A DNA stretch of 64,000 nt from Escherichia phage dhaeg: sequence record MN850609.1; one strand, written 5' to 3'. Positions 17,099 through 63,217 of this stretch are shown here, one piece after another; the first letter of the stretch is position 1; each line of letters begins with the position of its first letter. The notes beneath the pieces were generated by a model. The model saw nothing but the letters and a program-made list of their open reading frames with translations. It made no database searches and had not been told where the DNA came from. Both the position numbers and the translations under genes were made by a program.

Positions 17099-17110
17099 TA
17101 TTTATAAATA
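17099..17110. promoter_or_regulatory. palindromic divergent late promoter TATTTATAAATA between genes 51 and 26
   Basis: Perfect 12-nt palindrome containing TATAAATA on both strands, about 20 nt upstream of each divergent start codon. Confidence 0.6.
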
Positions 17111-20726: not shown

Positions 20727-20748
20727 TATAAATATAATTATATTTATA
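20727..20748. promoter_or_regulatory. divergent late promoter pair (TATAAATA plus strand for 20768 gene; TATAAATA minus strand for uvsW)
   Basis: tataaata at about 20727-20734 and tatttata at about 20741-20748 in the 55-nt divergent intergenic region. Confidence 0.55.
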
Positions 20749-21448: not shown

Positions 21449-22861
21449 ATGGCTTTTACTGTAAGTATAGCCGGCACAGCGTCTATTAAAATAGGCGAAA
21501 GTGCTAACTACACTGCTACCGCAACAGGTGCAGCTGTAGAAGGAACCATTACATATGTATGGTCTATTGATGGTGCTTCTAATCCAGAAGCAACCAATGT
21601 TTTGAAATATACAGGTGCTGCACCTGTAGGTAAGAAAGTTTTAAAAGTAGTAGCAACTTCTACTCCGGCTGAAGGCGAACCTGAGGTAGCTGAAGATACT
21701 TTTGAAGTTACCGTAGCTAATAAGACCATGTCTATTTCTTTGGCTTTGGACCCTATTTCTGTTTCTAAAGAAGTTGGCCAATCTCAAGTTGTTACTGCTA
21801 ACGTGACGGGTGCACCTGCAGGTGCAACAATTGCTTATGTTTGGAAACGTAACACCAGCGTAATCTCTGGCCAAACTGGTAAAACTATTACTGTAACCGA
21901 AGCCGCGGAAGCAAATTACACGTTGAACTGTGAAGTTACTGTTACCGCCCCTGAATATAACCCGGGTACCGCTACTAAAGGTGCTGCGGTAACTTTTGTT
22001 AAGAAAACTATATCAGGTGTTTCTGTTACTTTAACACCGGCCTCAATTAGTACAGAGAAAGACTCATCTGCACAGTTTAAAGCGGATGTAGTCGGCGCTC
22101 CTTCCGGCGTAAATGCAACTTATTCTTGGAAGAAAAACGGTTCTATTATTCCGGGCGAAAGCAGTAATACTCTTGCTGTTGATACGTCTACAATAGGTTC
22201 TTACTCTATTGAAGTTTCGGTACTCCTAAAAGGTACGGATTATAATGATTTAACCGTTACCAAAACAGGAAGTGTAACAATTACTAAAAAGACTATGGCA
22301 GGTGTTTCTGTTAATTTAACGCCTGCTTCTATTACTGTCTCTGAAGGAATCCCGGCTTCTTTTAAAGCCACGGTAGTCGGTGCGCCTAGTGGTGCTACTT
22401 TTGCTTATTCTTGGAAGAAAGATGGTTCACCTGTTGTGGGTGCTACGGATACATTAGTAATTGACACAAGCGCTGAAGGTTCACAGGTTATTGAAGTTTC
22501 TGTTGTGGTTTCGGCTACCGACTATAATTCTGTGACCGTCACAAAATCCGGTAATGTAACAATTACGGCTAAAGTCGCTCCTGAACCAGAGGGCGAACTA
22601 CCTTACGTTCATCCGCTACCAGTTCGTAATTCAGCTTATATTTGGTGTGGTTGGTGGGTTATGGACGAAATTCAGAAAATGACCCTTGAAGGCAAAGACT
22701 GGAAAACTGACGAACCTGATAGTGAATATTATCTCCATCGTTATACCCTTCAAAAAATGGTAGCCGATTATCCTGAGGTTGATGTACAGGAATCTCGTAA
22801 TGGTAGAATTATTCACAGAACCGCTTTGGATGCTGGAATTATTTACGATTACGTTTATTAA
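21449..22861 (+). CDS. hoc: Hoc-like capsid decoration protein with four Ig-like (BIG2-type) repeats
   Basis: 470 aa; four tandem ~90-aa repeats each containing Y(S/V)WK(K/R)(N/D)(G/T)S; C-terminal YIWCGWWVMDEI...DW...YPEVDVQESRNGRII shared with the 23135 ORF. Confidence 0.75.
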   Translation: MAFTVSIAGTASIKIGESANYTATATGAAVEGTITYVWSIDGASNPEATNVLKYTGAAPVGKKVLKVVATSTPAEGEPEVAEDTFEVTVANKTMSISLALDPISVSKEVGQSQVVTANVTGAPAGATIAYVWKRNTSVISGQTGKTITVTEAAEANYTLNCEVTVTAPEYNPGTATKGAAVTFVKKTISGVSVTLTPASISTEKDSSAQFKADVVGAPSGVNATYSWKKNGSIIPGESSNTLAVDTSTIGSYSIEVSVLLKGTDYNDLTVTKTGSVTITKKTMAGVSVNLTPASITVSEGIPASFKATVVGAPSGATFAYSWKKDGSPVVGATDTLVIDTSAEGSQVIEVSVVVSATDYNSVTVTKSGNVTITAKVAPEPEGELPYVHPLPVRNSAYIWCGWWVMDEIQKMTLEGKDWKTDEPDSEYYLHRYTLQKMVADYPEVDVQESRNGRIIHRTALDAGIIYDYVY

Positions 22862-22863
22862 TA

Positions 22864-22881
22864 AAGGGCCGCAAGGCCCTT
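22864..22881 (+). terminator. hairpin aagggcc-gcaa-ggccctt after hoc
   Basis: 7-bp stem directly after the hoc stop; modest T tract. Confidence 0.5.
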
Positions 22882-22946
22882 ATTTAGTTTATGATAATGT
22901 TTCGGGAGATTAAGTTATTGACGAATAATTTTTAATAGGTGGATAT

Positions 22947-23126
22947 ATGAAATTTAACAAAGATATAGGGTTGTTGGTTTTCTTTATAGTGCTGTTTTTG
23001 TTTTCGTTAATTTCATTAACTAGTGGGTTGTTTGCTTCTATATTGGCTCTTTTCACATGCATTAGTTCCTTTTTTGGGATAATAGCTACTATAGATAAAA
23101 TTTTACATACCAAAAAGGGCCCGTAG
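22947..23126 (+). CDS. small two-helix membrane protein (59 aa), not in the ORF track
   Basis: ATG preceded by AGGTGGA; MKFNKDIGLLVFFIVLFLFSLISLTSGLFASILALFTCISSFFGIIATIDKILHTKKGP; stop lies in the downstream terminator stem. Confidence 0.45.
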   Translation: MKFNKDIGLLVFFIVLFLFSLISLTSGLFASILALFTCISSFFGIIATIDKILHTKKGP

Positions 23127-23133
23127 GCCCTTT
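23114..23133. terminator. bidirectional terminator aaagggcc-cgta-ggcccttt between the convergent hoc-type genes
   Basis: 8-bp stem flanked by A run upstream and T run downstream, so it reads as a terminator on both strands. Confidence 0.65.
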
Positions 23134-23134
23134 A

Positions 23135-24001
23135 TTATTTTTCAGGAGGGACGTAAACTAAGTCTTTCCTTTCTAAGATGTAGCCATTTCTCGACTCTTG
23201 TATCTCTACTTCAGGATACTTAGACAAAAGGTCGGCTACTTTTTGTAACTCACATTTATACTTGTATGGGCTGTTGTTTATATCCAAAGTCCAATCTTCT
23301 CCCAATCTAACGGCTTCTCTTATTTCGTCCCATACCCACCAACCTATCCACATATACGATTCATTTCTTCCACCGCCATAGGGTAAATAAGCATTAAGGT
23401 CGTTATCATATATGAAAGGGCACTGCAATACATCATCCCTAGGTTTTATTTCAACTAAAAGTTCTTCAGAAGCAGGGATATATGCTCCTTCGCAGGTCGC
23501 TATAGATTTTAATGTATAATCTCCAAATTTATCAGGGTCGTCTATTAATATATCAATATCTTCGTCTTTAGATAATTCTACTCCATCTCTATACCATCTA
23601 CAAATTCTTTCGGCATAAGTGGGTTCCACTCTACACGACGGGCGAAGTGAAACTGTTTCTCCTATATTGGCATATATTAATTCCCTAGAGTTTATATCTA
23701 GGACTATTCTTCTTGGAAGGGTACCTATTTCAAGTTCTATTTCGTTACTCTTTGTTATTTCACCACTTTTCTTATTTGTTATGGTCGCATAAAATGTTCC
23801 TGCCGCCGGGAATCCTACTTCCCATAAATTTAATTCAAAAGGGTCTTCGGTAGGAAGTTGTGGAATATGGACATCGTTTTTATACCAATTAATTTCTACG
23901 TCATCTAGAGTAGAACCGGGTGGTAATACAAACCCGGTATAAAAGGTTACTGTCCTGCCAACCAATTCATATCTAGGACCATTTATTTTAAGTACAATCA
24001 T
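23135..24001 (-). CDS. second Hoc-like decoration protein (two Ig-like domains plus shared C-terminal module)
   Basis: 288 aa; Ig-like segments with WYKND / WYRDG motifs; C-terminal YMWIGWWVWDEI...DW...YPEVEIQESRNGYIL parallels the 21449 ORF; strong AAGGAGG SD. Confidence 0.7.
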   Translation of the reverse strand: MIVLKINGPRYELVGRTVTFYTGFVLPPGSTLDDVEINWYKNDVHIPQLPTEDPFELNLWEVGFPAAGTFYATITNKKSGEITKSNEIELEIGTLPRRIVLDINSRELIYANIGETVSLRPSCRVEPTYAERICRWYRDGVELSKDEDIDILIDDPDKFGDYTLKSIATCEGAYIPASEELLVEIKPRDDVLQCPFIYDNDLNAYLPYGGGRNESYMWIGWWVWDEIREAVRLGEDWTLDINNSPYKYKCELQKVADLLSKYPEVEIQESRNGYILERKDLVYVPPEK

Positions 24002-24010
24002 TTAACCTCC

Positions 24011-25516
24011 TTAAAACGTGCTCATATTGGTATGGTCTTCGACAGAAAATAAAACTTCAACAGGGATATCTGTAGTCGTATTAAGAGGGCCGCCTACAAT
24101 AAACACAGATACAGTGTAGTATTTTCTAGTATCACGGTCAAATATTTCGTAACGGTTAAATTGTCTTGCACTAGAATAAGCCAAATCGTCGAATAATTCA
24201 GGAGATGATGACCACAACACATTACTCCAGTTGGCACATTCTATTCCGTTTTCATAGTTGGTAAATCTTTTAATATCAAGCCTATTAGTAAGACCTGCAT
24301 TAGTAGCCCTTATATGGATGCCTACAGATGAGTACATGCGAACATGAAGAACCATATTAAGGTCCCACAAACGTATTTCCTTCCACTCTGAAGTGTTCAG
24401 AGGCTTATCAAATCTTAAAGAGCCTTTCCAATATCTAGGTGGATAGAATGGGAAAAGTTTATCATATAAAGATTTTAATTGAGACTGGGTTAAAGAATCG
24501 ACATCAAATACTGCATCTTTGCCTGGCGCACCTGCAGGACCTATAGGACCTTGAATACCTTGTGGCCCGGGTTCACCCTTTTCACCTTTAGGACCTGGGT
24601 CGCCTTGCGGTCCTTGGGCACCTTGCTCTCCAGGTGCACCATCTTCTCCGGGATTTCCTGGACGCCCTTCTTTTACAAATAAATTCCAATAATCGGCCCA
24701 CAGGTCTCCACTCCCAGGATAACTATCATTATTTGCTATATTATCCTGGATACAAATCCAAGAAGACCCTTCGCACTGGACCAAATCGTTTATATAATAA
24801 GACGAACCAAGGGCCCAGTTTCCGGCCCAGATAAACCCATTACCATCTTGGCCTGGCGCGCCTTGTGGACCTTGAGGGCCGGTTGGGCCTGTTGGTCCTT
24901 GAGGACCTGGTGCACCGATATTAGCCAATAGTGCCCAAACTCCTTCGCTAGGAGGTATTGTTCCTGTATTAGAACTGATGCAAAAATAAGAAGCTCCCTG
25001 GTATCCAACTGCATCGTCTTTAGAGTATTGGGTAGATTCATCCCAGGCTCCCTTCCACACCAAACCTGCCGGGCCTATAGGACCTTGTGGTCCTTGCGGT
25101 CCTACTTCTCCTTGGGCCCCTTGTAAACCCTGAGGGCCTTCTTTTCCTGGTGAACCCGGGTCTCCTTTAGGACCTTCTGGACCTGCTGGTCCTGGTTCGC
25201 CCTTTTCTCCTTTAGGACCGGGGTTACCTTGAATACCTTGCGGCCCTGGGTCTCCTTTAGGGCCTTGTGGACCTTCAGTACCAGGTGTTAGCATCTCATT
25301 AGTTATACCTAAATGGGCCAACGCGCCTTCCCTAGAAGCTTGTTTTATAAATTCAAGTCCATAGCTTTGAGAAGAATCTAGCATAGTAGGGTCTAAGGTG
25401 CTTTCACTAGTGAGTATGTCCACAAATTCCAATGATTTGTTCTGTGGAACTTCTACTAATGATACGCCTCTAAAGTGGCCTCTACCATCATGCCCGTATA
25501 ATGGATTGTCTGACAT
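24011..25516 (-). CDS. collagen-like protein with two CBM5/12-like aromatic modules and a C-terminal globular domain
   Basis: 501 aa; three blocks of uninterrupted Gly-X-Y triplets ([13 protein letters not shown]...) separated by two ~45-aa modules fitting AW-x5-Y-x3-D-x-V-x-Y-x-G-x2-Y-x-C...W; AGGAGA SD; 10 nt upstream of the 23135 ORF. Confidence 0.8.
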
Positions 25517-49676: not shown

Positions 49677-49684
49677 TATTTATA
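49677..49684 (-). promoter_or_regulatory. late promoter TATAAATA for gene 9
   Basis: Reverse complement of tatttata about 27 nt upstream of the gene 9 ATG. Confidence 0.6.
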
Positions 49685-49690
49685 CCCCCG

Positions 49691-49710
49691 AAAGGGCCTT
49701 GCGGCCCTTT
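49691..49710 (-). terminator. terminator hairpin aaagggcc-ttgc-ggcccttt after gene 8
   Basis: 8-bp stem flanked by T tract directly after the gene 8 stop. Confidence 0.65.
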
Positions 49711-58978: not shown

Positions 58979-59001
58979 TATAAATAATATTAATATTTAT
59001 A
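58979..59001. promoter_or_regulatory. divergent late promoter pair between genes 53 and 4
   Basis: tataaata at about 58979-58986 (plus, gene 4) and tatttata at about 58994-59001 (minus-strand TATAAATA, gene 53) in a 46-nt intergenic region. Confidence 0.6.
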
Positions 59002-63031: not shown

Positions 63032-63217
63032 ATGAAACGTTGTGAATTAATTAGAAATGTTACTGCACTGGCCGCCGTTACTGCTTTTGGCTTTAGTATG
63101 TTTGCAGGATTCATGTTGGATTTGCTTACAACTTCCGAGAATATAATCTCTTTAGTAGTGGCATTCTTAATTGGTTCAATCTCTTTCGTTATGGATAAAA
63201 TCTCTAAAGGTGAGTAA
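63032..63217 (+). CDS. small membrane protein (61 aa, two hydrophobic helices)
   Basis: Internal ATG with ggagaataaaATG leader (same SD context as the 1477 and 1920 ORFs); ALAAVTAFGFSMFAGFML and [14 protein letters not shown] hydrophobic stretches. Confidence 0.5.
   Translation: MKRCELIRNVTALAAVTAFGFSMFAGFMLDLLTTSENIISLVVAFLIGSISFVMDKISKGE

What the first reader, a model, noticed from the sequence alone, without database searches (positions are those of the whole stretch)
22864..23133. Unlisted small two-helix membrane-protein gene bracketed by two hairpins between the convergent hoc-type genes
The only ORF the track lists here is a 67-aa minus-strand frame. The plus strand instead carries an ATG preceded by AGGTGGA encoding a 59-aa, strongly hydrophobic two-helix protein whose stop sits inside the bidirectional terminator stem. 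Small membrane proteins in hypervariable T-even loci are often superinfection-exclusion, immunity or lysis-timing factors.
Basis: seen in the sequence. Interest (0 to 1): 0.45.

Follow-up and report, generated by a model that had tools for sequence, protein, structure and literature searches.

The report
Unannotated small membrane-protein ORFan cassette
Between two capsid-decoration genes of a T4-like coliphage sits a 250-base insert, bounded by two near-identical hairpins, that most likely encodes a never-annotated 59-residue membrane protein found in only four closely related phages; it is a probable but unproven gene of unknown role, and ordinary for this kind of phage.

Summary
The plus strand has an ATG ORF at 22947-23126 (59 aa). 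AGGTGGA lies 7 nt upstream. The TAG stop sits in hairpin 2 (23114-23133). Hairpin 1 (22864-22881) follows the hoc stop.

The window is a Dhakavirus (T4-like). The cassette occurs in only four phages: dhabil, CLB_P2, Ec2-ASingh and IME341. JS10, IME08, CGG4-1 and ABTNLsp5 have a single hairpin there. No public record annotates the plus frame, and no homologue exists in any library searched.

Plus versus minus is favoured but not proven.
- For plus: a conserved strong Shine-Dalgarno; co-orientation with all neighbours in IME341; conservative substitutions (pN/pS 0.28-0.64, against 0.39-2.4 for minus); and a 43-residue apolar core between Lys-rich ends.
- Against: codon usage slightly prefers the minus frame, each frame's openness follows from the other, and with only 16 substitutions no test reaches significance.

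No promoter lies between hairpin 1 and the ATG. Expression is therefore inferred to be late, by read-through from the inh-hoc late promoter.

My estimates are about 0.6 for a plus-strand membrane-protein gene, about 0.3 for a non-functional or proto-gene ORF, and about 0.07 for the minus frame. Function is unknown, and the exclusion and lysis-timing roles are guesses. Interest is modest.

The parts
22864..22881 (+). Hairpin 1 (AAGGGCC-GCAA-GGCCCTT). It is the terminator or RNA-end hairpin of the 470-aa hoc gene and forms the left boundary of the cassette.
   Evidence: Terminator scan. It folds at -13.5 kcal/mol. The stem is conserved in IME341 with the loop replaced by its reverse complement. 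IME08, JS10 and others have a single hairpin at this site.
22882..22936 (+). 5' leader of the small ORF. It contains no recognisable sigma-70, MotA-box or late promoter. It also holds the only indel seen among the relatives, a 3-nt one.
   Evidence: Promoter scan found nothing upstream of the ATG. There is no TATAAATA here.
22937..22943 (+). Shine-Dalgarno sequence AGGTGGA (AGGTGAA in IME341), ending 3 nt before the ATG; the AGG core is 7 nt from it.
   Evidence: Duplex with the 16S 3' end is -7.1 kcal/mol, which only 7% of all ATGs in the window reach or beat and which ranks in the strongest 22% of long genes. It is -8.3 in IME341.
22947..23126 (+). 59-aa ORF MKFNKDIGLLVFFIVLFLFSLISLTSGLFASILALFTCISSFFGIIATIDKILHTKKGP. 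It is the predicted inner-membrane protein.
   Evidence: It is intact in all three sequence variants at 88-100% aa identity.
22910..23113 (-). Antisense 67-aa frame with a TTG start. It is annotated as hypothetical protein UNI73280.1 in CLB_P2 and is judged a by-product of the plus ORF.
   Evidence: It stays open in 75% of synonymous resamplings of the plus protein. There is no SD at the TTG start. pN/pS against IME341 is 2.4 and the summed BLOSUM62 score of its replacements is -13.
23114..23133 (.). Hairpin 2 (AAAGGGCC-CGTA-GGCCCTTT). It is a bidirectional terminator and the right boundary of the cassette. It encodes the last four codons (K-K-G-P) and the stop of the small ORF.
   Evidence: Homology with IME341 ends immediately 3' of this stem.
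20727..20734 (+). T4-type late promoter consensus TATAAATA upstream of inh. It is the only recognisable plus-strand promoter feeding inh-hoc and, by read-through of hairpin 1, the small ORF.
   Evidence: The read-through step is an inference.
21449..22861 (+). hoc (470 aa, Ig-like repeats), the upstream neighbour.
   Evidence: plus the annotation in relatives.
23135..24001 (-). Second, convergent hoc-type gene (288 aa), the downstream neighbour. It is absent from IME341.

Best explanation
The region is a roughly 250-bp ORFan cassette that sits where related phages have a single hoc terminator hairpin. It is bounded by two directly repeated copies of one palindromic hairpin (GGGCC-N4-GGCCC). 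It most likely entered, and can be lost, by recombination between such hairpins.

Its plus strand encodes a 59-residue protein made of a Lys-rich N-terminus, about 43 apolar residues and a Lys-rich C-terminus. That layout fits a tight N-in/C-in helical hairpin, or one long helix, in the host inner membrane.

Translation starts at ATG 22947 from a strong Shine-Dalgarno and ends at a TAG inside hairpin 2. The cassette has no promoter of its own. I infer that it is transcribed late and at low level, by read-through of hairpin 1 from the inh-hoc late promoter at 20727.

What is shown: the anatomy, the indel polymorphism, the conserved SD, ATG and stop, and the membrane-like composition.
What is inferred: that the ORF is translated, that it inserts in the membrane, and when it is expressed.
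What is guessed: that it acts as a dispensable accessory factor on the envelope late in infection, in lysis timing or exclusion. I give any specific role at most about 0.2.
For: Anatomy.

Indel polymorphism and module boundaries:
- IME08, JS10, CGG4-1 and ABTNLsp5 have one hairpin between the convergent hoc genes.
- The window, dhabil, CLB_P2 and Ec2-ASingh have hairpin-ORF-hairpin.
- IME341 keeps hairpin-ORF-hairpin but has a different right-hand neighbour. Homology breaks exactly at the 3' side of hairpin 2.

Coding on the plus strand:
- The SD is -7.1 kcal/mol, and -8.3 in IME341, and the ATG is conserved.
- The only indel lies outside the ORF.
- pN/pS is 0.64 and 0.28 for plus, against 2.38 and 0.39 for minus.
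- All six replacements inside residues 7-48 keep apolar residues.
- In Ec2-ASingh, two changes that are synonymous in plus destroy the only decent minus-strand SD.
- All neighbouring genes in IME341 are on the plus strand.
- The minus frame would have to start inside the T-tail of the terminator that ends hoc2.

Not chance. The positive control, the only other ORF passing the same filter, is a gene conserved in 979 phage records.

Membrane character.

Late promoter and absence of an own promoter.
Against: - A codon-usage log-odds model trained on 50 long genes of the window gives -3.2 bits for plus and +9.0 for minus. Synonymous-codon log-odds give -4.0 against +2.0. Membrane proteins are compositionally atypical, but the conserved TM control gene scores +0.34 per codon.
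- Only 16 substitutions exist across three variants. Randomisation gives P = 0.15 for BLOSUM conservativeness, P = 0.09 for no polar residue entering the apolar core, and P = 0.12 for the plus-minus difference.
- Nonsynonymous divergence is about 12 times that of the adjacent hoc 3' end (pN 0.050 against 0.004; hoc pN/pS 0.07). Constraint is therefore weak at best.
- Hydrophobic plus and hydrophilic minus frames are mirror images. Each frame's openness follows from the other.
- No homologue was found anywhere, and there is no promoter or expression data.
- The last four codons and the stop are supplied by the terminator stem, as expected if the ORF is an accident of a T-rich spacer.
- AlphaFold2 gives one long helix rather than a hairpin.
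Confidence: 0.6

Rival explanations
1. The plus ORF is a non-functional or proto-gene accident. A T-rich spacer between two terminator copies happens to be open, and T-rich sequence translates into hydrophobic residues. It may be translated at low level but is not under selection. The real feature is the duplicated terminator and its spacer.
For: - The spacer is 41% T.
- The C-terminal K-K-G-P and the stop are supplied by the hairpin.
- pN/pS (0.28-0.64) is based on 14 substitutions and does not exclude 1, and pN is about 12 times that of hoc.
- Codon usage is not gene-like.
- It is a strict ORFan confined to four near-identical phages.
- There is no promoter of its own.
- De novo emergence of TM ORFs from thymine-rich non-genic sequence is documented in yeast (PMC7005711).
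Against: - The ORF length arises in only 1.6% of composition-matched shuffles, and never together with a 40-residue apolar run.
- A strong, correctly spaced SD and an ATG are conserved. The one change in the SD improves the match to the 16S 3' end.
- T is concentrated at codon position 2 (53%, against 37% and 39% at positions 1 and 3).
- The cassette was retained in IME341 although its right-hand context was replaced.
- No replacement introduces a polar residue into the core.
Confidence: 0.28
2. The minus-strand 67-aa frame (22910-23113), as annotated in CLB_P2, is the real gene, and the hydrophobic plus frame is its antisense shadow.
For: - It was called by RASTtk in CLB_P2.
- It is open in all three variants.
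- Codon log-odds are +9.0 bits and synonymous-codon log-odds +2.0.
- An ORF of at least 67 aa on the minus strand arises in only 0.14% of shuffles.
- An internal ATG has a moderate SD of -5.6 kcal/mol.
Against: - The TTG start lies in the T-tail of the terminator that ends hoc2 and has no SD.
- The SD of the internal ATG is lost in Ec2-ASingh.
- pN/pS against IME341 is 2.38. Nine replacements are mostly radical (N>I, P>H, S>Y, C>R), the summed BLOSUM62 score is -13, and the frame is no better than random (P = 0.79).
- In IME341 it would be a lone minus-strand gene among plus-strand genes, with no upstream transcription unit.
- Given the plus protein, this frame is open 75% of the time by construction.
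- The product is N/K-rich and low-complexity, with no family match.
Confidence: 0.07
3. The cassette is primarily a regulatory RNA or terminator element and the ORF is incidental. Possible forms are a double terminator insulating the convergent hoc genes, a small RNA, or a type-I-toxin-like module in which read-through hoc2 transcripts act as antisense.
For: - Two stable hairpins fold at about -13 kcal/mol each.
- The 291-nt plus transcript folds better than shuffles (z = -3.1), with long-range pairing of the 5' arm of hairpin 1 to the 3' arm of hairpin 2.
- The peptide is small and hydrophobic and faces convergent transcription.
Against: - There is no Rfam match.
- The long-range pairing follows trivially from the two hairpins being the same palindrome.
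- No antisense promoter was found.
- There is no similarity to the Hok, Ldr, Ibs, TisB or Fst families in Pfam or NCBIfam.
- Relatives insulate the same convergent genes with one hairpin.
- In IME341 there is no convergent gene at all.
Confidence: 0.05

Closest known systems
PeSL (promoter-early stem-loop) bounded ORFan modules of T4-type phages (Arbiol et al. 2010, PMC2839356; Comeau et al. 2014, PMC4122927)
   Same: A small ORFan is flanked by near-identical stem-loops of the A3-4G3-loop-C3T3-4 type. It is present or absent between very close relatives, and homology breakpoints fall at the stem-loops. It lies beside plastic non-essential genes (hoc).
   Different: No early promoter (TTTACW-N17-TAYWAT or TTGACA-N17-TATAAT) follows hairpin 1. 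The weak GTTTAT...TTAAGT candidate has its spacing broken by the 3-nt deletion in IME341. The cassette sits in a late-gene context, so it is a stem-loop-only module and not a PeSL.
T4 Imm and Sp superinfection-exclusion membrane proteins
   Same: These are small phage-encoded inner-membrane proteins of T-even phages. Imm is said to have two TM segments (from my own knowledge).
   Different: There is no sequence similarity in Pfam, PHROGs or NCBIfam. There is no early or middle promoter, and the predicted expression is late. The ORF is shorter, at 59 aa.
Class II holins / pinholins (e.g. phage 21 S21) and other small lysis-timing proteins
   Same: The size range is similar. There are two putative TM segments with N-in/C-in topology and a short positively charged C-terminus. 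Late expression is predicted.
   Different: There is no dual-start motif, no adjacency to an endolysin or spanin, and no family match. T4-type phages already carry the t holin with rI and rIII (my own knowledge), and TM2 is only marginally hydrophobic.
De novo TM ORFs from thymine-rich non-genic sequence (Vakirlis et al. 2020, PMC7005711)
   Same: A T-rich spacer yields a TM-prone ORF. It is a strict ORFan under weak constraint, and its C-terminus and stop are borrowed from a terminator.
   Different: That work was done in yeast. Here no ancestral non-coding state of the spacer is available, so de novo origin cannot be shown.
The conserved small TM gene at window 63032-63217 (61 aa, 'putative membrane protein' in dhabil)
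   Same: It is the same size class, has an SD and ATG, carries a TM segment, and lies in the same genome.
   Different: It is conserved in 979 phage records and has gene-like codon usage of +0.34 bits per codon. The ORF studied here is in 6 records and scores -0.055 bits per codon.

Membership tests
PeSL cassette (T4-type mobile promoter-terminator module) | Stem-loop of conserved sequence flanking the ORF on both sides | tested here: met
   GGGCC-N4-GGCCC with A-rich 5' and T-rich 3' flanks occurs at 22864-22881 and 23114-23133. There are 3 copies in the window against 0.01 expected.
PeSL cassette (T4-type mobile promoter-terminator module) | Sigma-70-like early promoter immediately downstream of the stem-loop | tested here: not met
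   The scan found no site with at least 9 of 12 matches between 22882 and 22946. By eye, the best candidate is GTTTAT-N17-TTAAGT, and its spacer is shortened by 3 nt in IME341.
PeSL cassette (T4-type mobile promoter-terminator module) | Marks insertion/deletion/replacement boundaries between close relatives | tested here: met
   Three architectures were found with breakpoints at the hairpins.
Class II holin / pinholin | Two TM domains, N-in/C-in, with a charged C-terminal tail | tested here: inconclusive
   The Hessa-scale scan gives segments at 7-25 (-4.1) and 28-46 (-1.5), and both termini carry Lys. AlphaFold2 gives a single helix, residues 2-56.
Class II holin / pinholin | Genetic linkage to endolysin/spanin genes; dual-start motif; match to a holin family | tested here: not met
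   The neighbours are hoc genes. There is only one Met near the N-terminus. No Pfam, PHROG or NCBIfam match was found.
T4 Imm / Sp superinfection exclusion proteins | Sequence homology to Imm or Sp families | tested here: not met
   No significant hit in Pfam, PHROGs or NCBIfam. tblastn against 50,697 phage records finds only the six cassette-bearing records.
T4 Imm / Sp superinfection exclusion proteins | Early or middle expression, so that the protein is present before secondary infection | tested here: not met
   There is no sigma-70 or MotA-type promoter upstream. The only plus-strand promoter signal is the late TATAAATA at 20727. This is a consensus scan only and not expression data.
T4 Imm / Sp superinfection exclusion proteins | Blocks DNA injection or lysozyme action of superinfecting phage | not testable with these tools
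   This needs an exclusion assay.
Type I toxin-antitoxin (Hok/Ldr/TisB-like) | Small hydrophobic toxin peptide | tested here: met
   59 aa with GRAVY 1.32.
Type I toxin-antitoxin (Hok/Ldr/TisB-like) | Dedicated antisense RNA gene with its own promoter; homology to a known toxin family | tested here: not met
   There is no minus-strand promoter in or next to the cassette. There is no Rfam hit and no Pfam or NCBIfam hit.
Bona fide protein-coding gene (general) | Purifying selection in the reading frame | tested here: inconclusive
   pN/pS is 0.64 and 0.28 from 14 substitutions, and randomisation P values are 0.09-0.19.
Bona fide protein-coding gene (general) | Translation-initiation signals conserved | tested here: met
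   ATG with an SD of -7.1 to -8.3 kcal/mol in all variants.
Bona fide protein-coding gene (general) | Genome-typical codon usage | tested here: not met
   -0.055 bits per codon against 0.40 +/- 0.17 for long genes. The synonymous-codon score is 1.85 SD below the gene mean.

The most novel reading that the evidence does not exclude
The cassette is a recently born gene. A thymine-rich spacer trapped between two copies of a terminator hairpin acquired an SD and ATG, and it borrows its last four codons and stop from the terminator. It now makes a membrane peptide. Because its stop lies inside hairpin 2, a terminating ribosome would melt the 5' arm of that hairpin. That would couple translation of the peptide to read-through at the bidirectional terminator, into antisense hoc2 in this phage or into 24.3-rnlB in IME341. 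The hairpin repeats make the module mobile by recombination.
Probability: 0.12. Interest if true: 0.55.

Novelty: new member of a known kind. Interest (0 to 1): 0.3.

Why it matters
If the ORF is real, it adds an unannotated membrane protein to therapeutic-candidate coliphages (CLB_P2, dhabil). It also shows a systematic blind spot. Gene callers either skip this ORF or pick its hydrophilic antisense frame, because composition-based models penalise small hydrophobic genes.

The locus is also a clean natural example of stem-loop-bounded module gain and loss. It occurs in a late-gene region and without the early promoter that defines PeSLs. The ORF is a possible young or de novo gene whose C-terminus is terminator-encoded.

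The practical stakes are small. The cassette is dispensable, since close relatives lack it, it is confined to four phages, and its function is unknown.

Tried and rejected
- Homology searches for the plus protein found nothing beyond the cassette-bearing phages. This covers the word-indexed 5.8-billion-cluster search, IMG/VR, where the only hit is IME341 itself, JGI metagenome contigs by peptide patterns and by an exact 25-mer, GTDB genomes, E. coli genomes and plasmids.
- Full HMMER against 1.84 billion representatives gave one hit, P0001. It is a spurious repetitive 305-aa ORF that shares the motif 'TCISSF.GI'.
- Searching with the minus-frame protein, to harvest more DNA variants through gene callers' minus-strand calls, returned only the CLB_P2 entry.
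- Pfam, PHROGs, NCBIfam and PADLOC gave only sub-threshold hydrophobic noise, such as DUF4386 at E = 0.005 and 17 bits against a cut-off of 27.6.
- Rfam gave nothing relevant.
- The test 'which frame's openness is surprising given the other?' is uninformative: 75% one way and 100% the other.
- The codon-position argument fails because third positions coincide in the two frames.
The single-sequence model is one long helix and cannot settle topology.
- A literature search for CLB_P2 transcriptomics returned nothing useful.
- I looked by eye for MotA-box and late-promoter motifs in the leader and found none.
Full report
**Context.** The window is from a T4-like coliphage of genus Dhakavirus. Bases 22700-23300 are 100% identical to Escherichia phages dhabil (MN850621) and CLB_P2 (OL770107, OZ035781). 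They are 99.2% identical to the unverified partial genome Ec2-ASingh (PQ561418). The local gene order is uvsW(-), inh(+), hoc(+, 470 aa, 21449-22861), the region in question, a second hoc-type gene(-, 288 aa, 23135-24001), a collagen-like 501-aa gene(-), a 24.3-like gene(+), then rnlB(+). This is the T4 inh-hoc-24.3-rnlB region, with extra genes inserted.

**Observation.** All of it is there.
- The ATG is at 22947 and AGGTGGA is at 22937-22943.
- The 59-aa ORF is MKFNKDIGLLVFFIVLFLFSLISLTSGLFASILALFTCISSFFGIIATIDKILHTKKGP.
- The TAG at 23124-23126 straddles the loop and 3' arm of hairpin 2, which is AAAGGGCC-CGTA-GGCCCTTT at 23114-23133.
- Hairpin 2 has T-runs on both strands. The stop of the convergent hoc-type gene lies 1 nt from it, so it is a bidirectional terminator.
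- Hairpin 1 is AAGGGCC-GCAA-GGCCCTT at 22864-22881, 3 nt after the hoc stop.
- Each hairpin folds at about -13 kcal/mol.
- Both hairpins are copies of one palindrome, GGGCC-N4-GGCCC. It occurs three times in the window, against 0.01 expected.
- The minus-strand 67-aa frame (22910-23113, TTG start) is the only ORF above the default 60-aa threshold. That is why the 59-aa ORF was 'unlisted'.

**More than chance?**
- In 5000 dinucleotide-preserving shuffles of the 232-nt spacer, a plus-strand ATG ORF of at least 55 aa arose in 1.6%. None of those had an apolar run of at least 40 residues.
- I scanned all six frames of the real 64 kb for ATG ORFs of 30-130 aa with an apolar run of at least 18 residues and an SD duplex of -5.5 kcal/mol or better. 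Only two passed.
- One is this ORF. The other is 63032-63217, a bona fide gene conserved in 979 phage records.
- The combination is therefore rare in real sequence, out-of-frame and antisense frames included.

**Distribution and anatomy across relatives.**
- tblastn of the 59-aa product against 50,697 phage records finds six records. They represent four phages and three distinct sequences: the window, dhabil and CLB_P2 (identical); Ec2-ASingh (97% aa); and IME341 (88% aa).
- IME08, JS10, Salmonella phages CGG4-1 and ABTNLsp5 have the two convergent hoc-type genes separated by 27-44 nt that hold a single hairpin.
- IME341 has hoc, hairpin 1, the ORF and hairpin 2. It lacks the second hoc gene and the collagen-like gene. 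The next genes (24.3-like, rnlB) are on the plus strand. Homology to the window stops directly 3' of the hairpin-2 stem.
- The unit hairpin-ORF-hairpin is thus an indel relative to close kin. It has been retained while its right-hand context was exchanged, and the breakpoints fall at the hairpins.
- This is the pattern described for stem-loop-bounded modules in T4-type phages, the PeSLs (PMC2839356, PMC4122927). One defining part is missing: no early promoter follows hairpin 1. The best hand-found candidate, GTTTAT-N17-TTAAGT, loses its spacing through a 3-nt deletion in IME341.

**Is it annotated or known?** No.
- dhabil and IME341 annotate nothing over the ORF. CLB_P2 annotates the minus frame as hypothetical protein UNI73280.1.
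- The plus protein shares no words with any of 5.8 billion protein clusters.
- A full HMMER pass over 1.84 billion representatives gave one spurious repetitive hit.
- IMG/VR, JGI metagenomes, GTDB genomes, E. coli genomes and plasmids gave nothing new.
- Pfam, PHROGs, NCBIfam, PADLOC and Rfam gave nothing significant.

**Plus or minus frame?** Several intuitive tests turn out to be uninformative, and I report them as such.
- Both frames are open in all three variants and no relative has a frameshift.
- The two frames share third codon positions, so codon-position counts cannot separate them.
- Given the plus protein, the minus frame stays open in 75% of synonymous resamplings. Given the minus protein, the plus frame is always open.
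- Hydrophobic plus and N/K-rich minus are complementary images of each other.

Evidence that does discriminate, in favour of plus:
1. Initiation signals. The plus ATG has an SD duplex of -7.1 kcal/mol, reached or beaten by only 7% of all ATGs in the window and in the strongest 22% of long genes. The single SD substitution in IME341 (G>A) improves it to -8.3.
2. Weak minus starts. The minus TTG start lies in the T-tail of the hoc2 terminator and has no SD (-4.6). An internal minus ATG has -5.6, but its AAGGAA is destroyed in Ec2-ASingh by two changes that are synonymous in plus.
3. Orientation. In IME341 all flanking genes are on the plus strand, and nothing upstream would transcribe the minus frame.
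4. Substitutions. pN/pS is 0.64 (against IME341) and 0.28 (against Ec2-ASingh) for plus. It is 2.38 and 0.39 for minus.
5. Nature of the replacements. The six replacements within residues 7-48 are I>V, G>W, L>V, V>I, G>V and L>M, and all stay apolar. The minus-frame replacements include N>I, P>H, S>Y, C>R and P>S. Summed BLOSUM62 scores are +1 for plus and -13 for minus.
6. Codon periodicity. T is concentrated at plus codon position 2, at 53% against 37% and 39%.

Evidence against plus:
- The codon log-odds model prefers minus (+9.0 against -3.2 bits). Synonymous-codon log-odds also prefer minus (+2.0 against -4.0).
- The conserved TM control gene does have gene-like codon usage.
- With 16 substitutions, no randomisation test is significant (P = 0.09-0.19).
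- The ORF's nonsynonymous divergence is about 12 times that of the adjacent hoc 3' end, whose pN/pS is 0.07.
- Constraint, if any, is therefore weak.

**The protein.**
- The N-terminus MKFNKD and the C-terminus DKILHTKKGP both carry net positive charge. Between them lie 43 residues with no D/E/K/R/H/N/Q/P.
- A Hessa-scale 19-residue scan uses scale values recalled from my own knowledge. It gives a strong TM segment at 7-25 (-4.1 kcal/mol) and a marginal one at 28-46 (-1.5). A local maximum lies at the L-T-S-G turn.
- Positive charge at both ends favours an even number of spans, that is N-in/C-in with two helices.
- AlphaFold2 on the single sequence gives one continuous helix, residues 2-56, at pLDDT 91. 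This does not address membrane topology.
- 'Two-helix' is thus plausible but not shown.

**Expression (inferred).**
- The only plus-strand promoter signal upstream is the T4-type late consensus TATAAATA at 20727-20734, before inh.
- The 65-nt leader after hairpin 1 has no sigma-70, MotA-box or late motif.
- The ORF would therefore be made late, from transcripts that read through hairpin 1. That hairpin has an interrupted T-tail, TTATTTAGTTT.
- Transcripts would end at hairpin 2 in this phage. In IME341 hairpin 2 lacks a plus-strand T-run, so they would continue into the 24.3-like gene and rnlB.
- The stop codon lies in the hairpin-2 loop, so a terminating ribosome would occupy the 5' arm. This could lower termination there. 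It is an inference from general knowledge and was not tested.

**Mechanism I commit to.** This is a dispensable, hairpin-bounded ORFan module. It was gained and lost by recombination between terminator hairpins. It expresses, late and at low level, a 59-residue inner-membrane peptide.
- Probability that it is a translated plus-strand gene: about 0.6.
- Accidental or proto-gene ORF in a T-rich spacer: about 0.28.
- Minus-frame gene: about 0.07.
- Purely RNA-level element: about 0.05.

Its cellular role is unknown.
- Late timing and an N-in/C-in small-TM architecture resemble lysis-timing proteins more than the early Imm/Sp exclusion proteins.
- None of the defining features of holins, Imm/Sp or type I toxins that could be tested was met, apart from small size and hydrophobicity.
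- I give any specific role at most 0.2.

**Novelty and interest.** This is a new, unannotated ORFan of a familiar kind, a small phage membrane ORF in a stem-loop-bounded plastic module. A specialist would not be surprised.

The mildly interesting points are these:
- Gene callers choose the antisense frame or nothing.
- The module is of a stem-loop-only type, in a late-gene context.
- The ORF's C-terminus and stop are terminator-encoded, which fits a young or de novo origin (compare PMC7005711).

Interest: 0.3.

Noticed in passing
window 22871-22874 vs L003 (IME341) 2927-2930; window 49694-49707: The hairpin-1 loop is GCAA in the window and Ec2-ASingh but TTGC in IME341. That is its exact reverse complement on an unchanged palindromic stem, which suggests a loop flip or exchange with an inverted copy. 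A third copy with the TTGC loop (GGGCCTTGCGGCCC) lies at 49694-49707 between two minus-strand genes. It is next to a minus-strand late-promoter consensus at 49677-49684, forming a terminator-late-promoter composite.
   Followed up: partly
window 24011-25516 (-): A 501-aa protein with long collagen-like G-X-Y runs is encoded just upstream of the second hoc-type gene on the minus strand. It is annotated only as hypothetical in dhabil and CLB_P2. It is absent from IME341 and IME08. JS10, CGG4-1 and ABTNLsp5 have differently sized ORFs at this position, called 'tail fiber protein' or hypothetical. I found no late-promoter consensus directly upstream of it.
   Followed up: partly
window 63032-63217 (+): This 61-aa ORF has one TM segment, a good SD and gene-like codon usage. 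It is the only other ORF in the 64 kb that passes the small-TM filter. It is conserved in 979 phage records and is called 'putative membrane protein' in dhabil.
   Followed up: partly
window ~22800-22913 (+) (dhabil_242; the 44-aa TTG ORF 22779-22913): dhabil annotates a 37-aa hypothetical protein here. It overlaps the 3' end of hoc, runs through hairpin 1 and ends in the leader of the small ORF. It looks like a spurious call made instead of the 59-aa ORF.
   Followed up: no
window 20727-20734 (+) and 20741-20748 (-); also 17099-17110 and 58979-59001: Back-to-back or overlapping TATAAATA late-promoter consensus sites sit on opposite strands in divergent intergenic regions, for example between uvsW and inh. 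There are 18 sites in the window against 8.6 expected.
   Followed up: no
window 22855-23145 (+): The two hairpins are the same palindrome. As a result, the minimum-energy fold of the whole transcript pairs the 5' arm of hairpin 1 with the 3' arm of hairpin 2, enclosing the ORF (z = -3.1). This is probably a trivial consequence of the repeat, but it is an alternative RNA conformation that would hide both terminators.
   Followed up: no
window vs dhabil MN850621: The window is not collinear with dhabil throughout. The distance between the two small TM ORFs is 40,085 nt in the window and 40,828 nt in dhabil, so an indel of about 740 nt lies somewhere between 23.1 kb and 63 kb.
   Followed up: no
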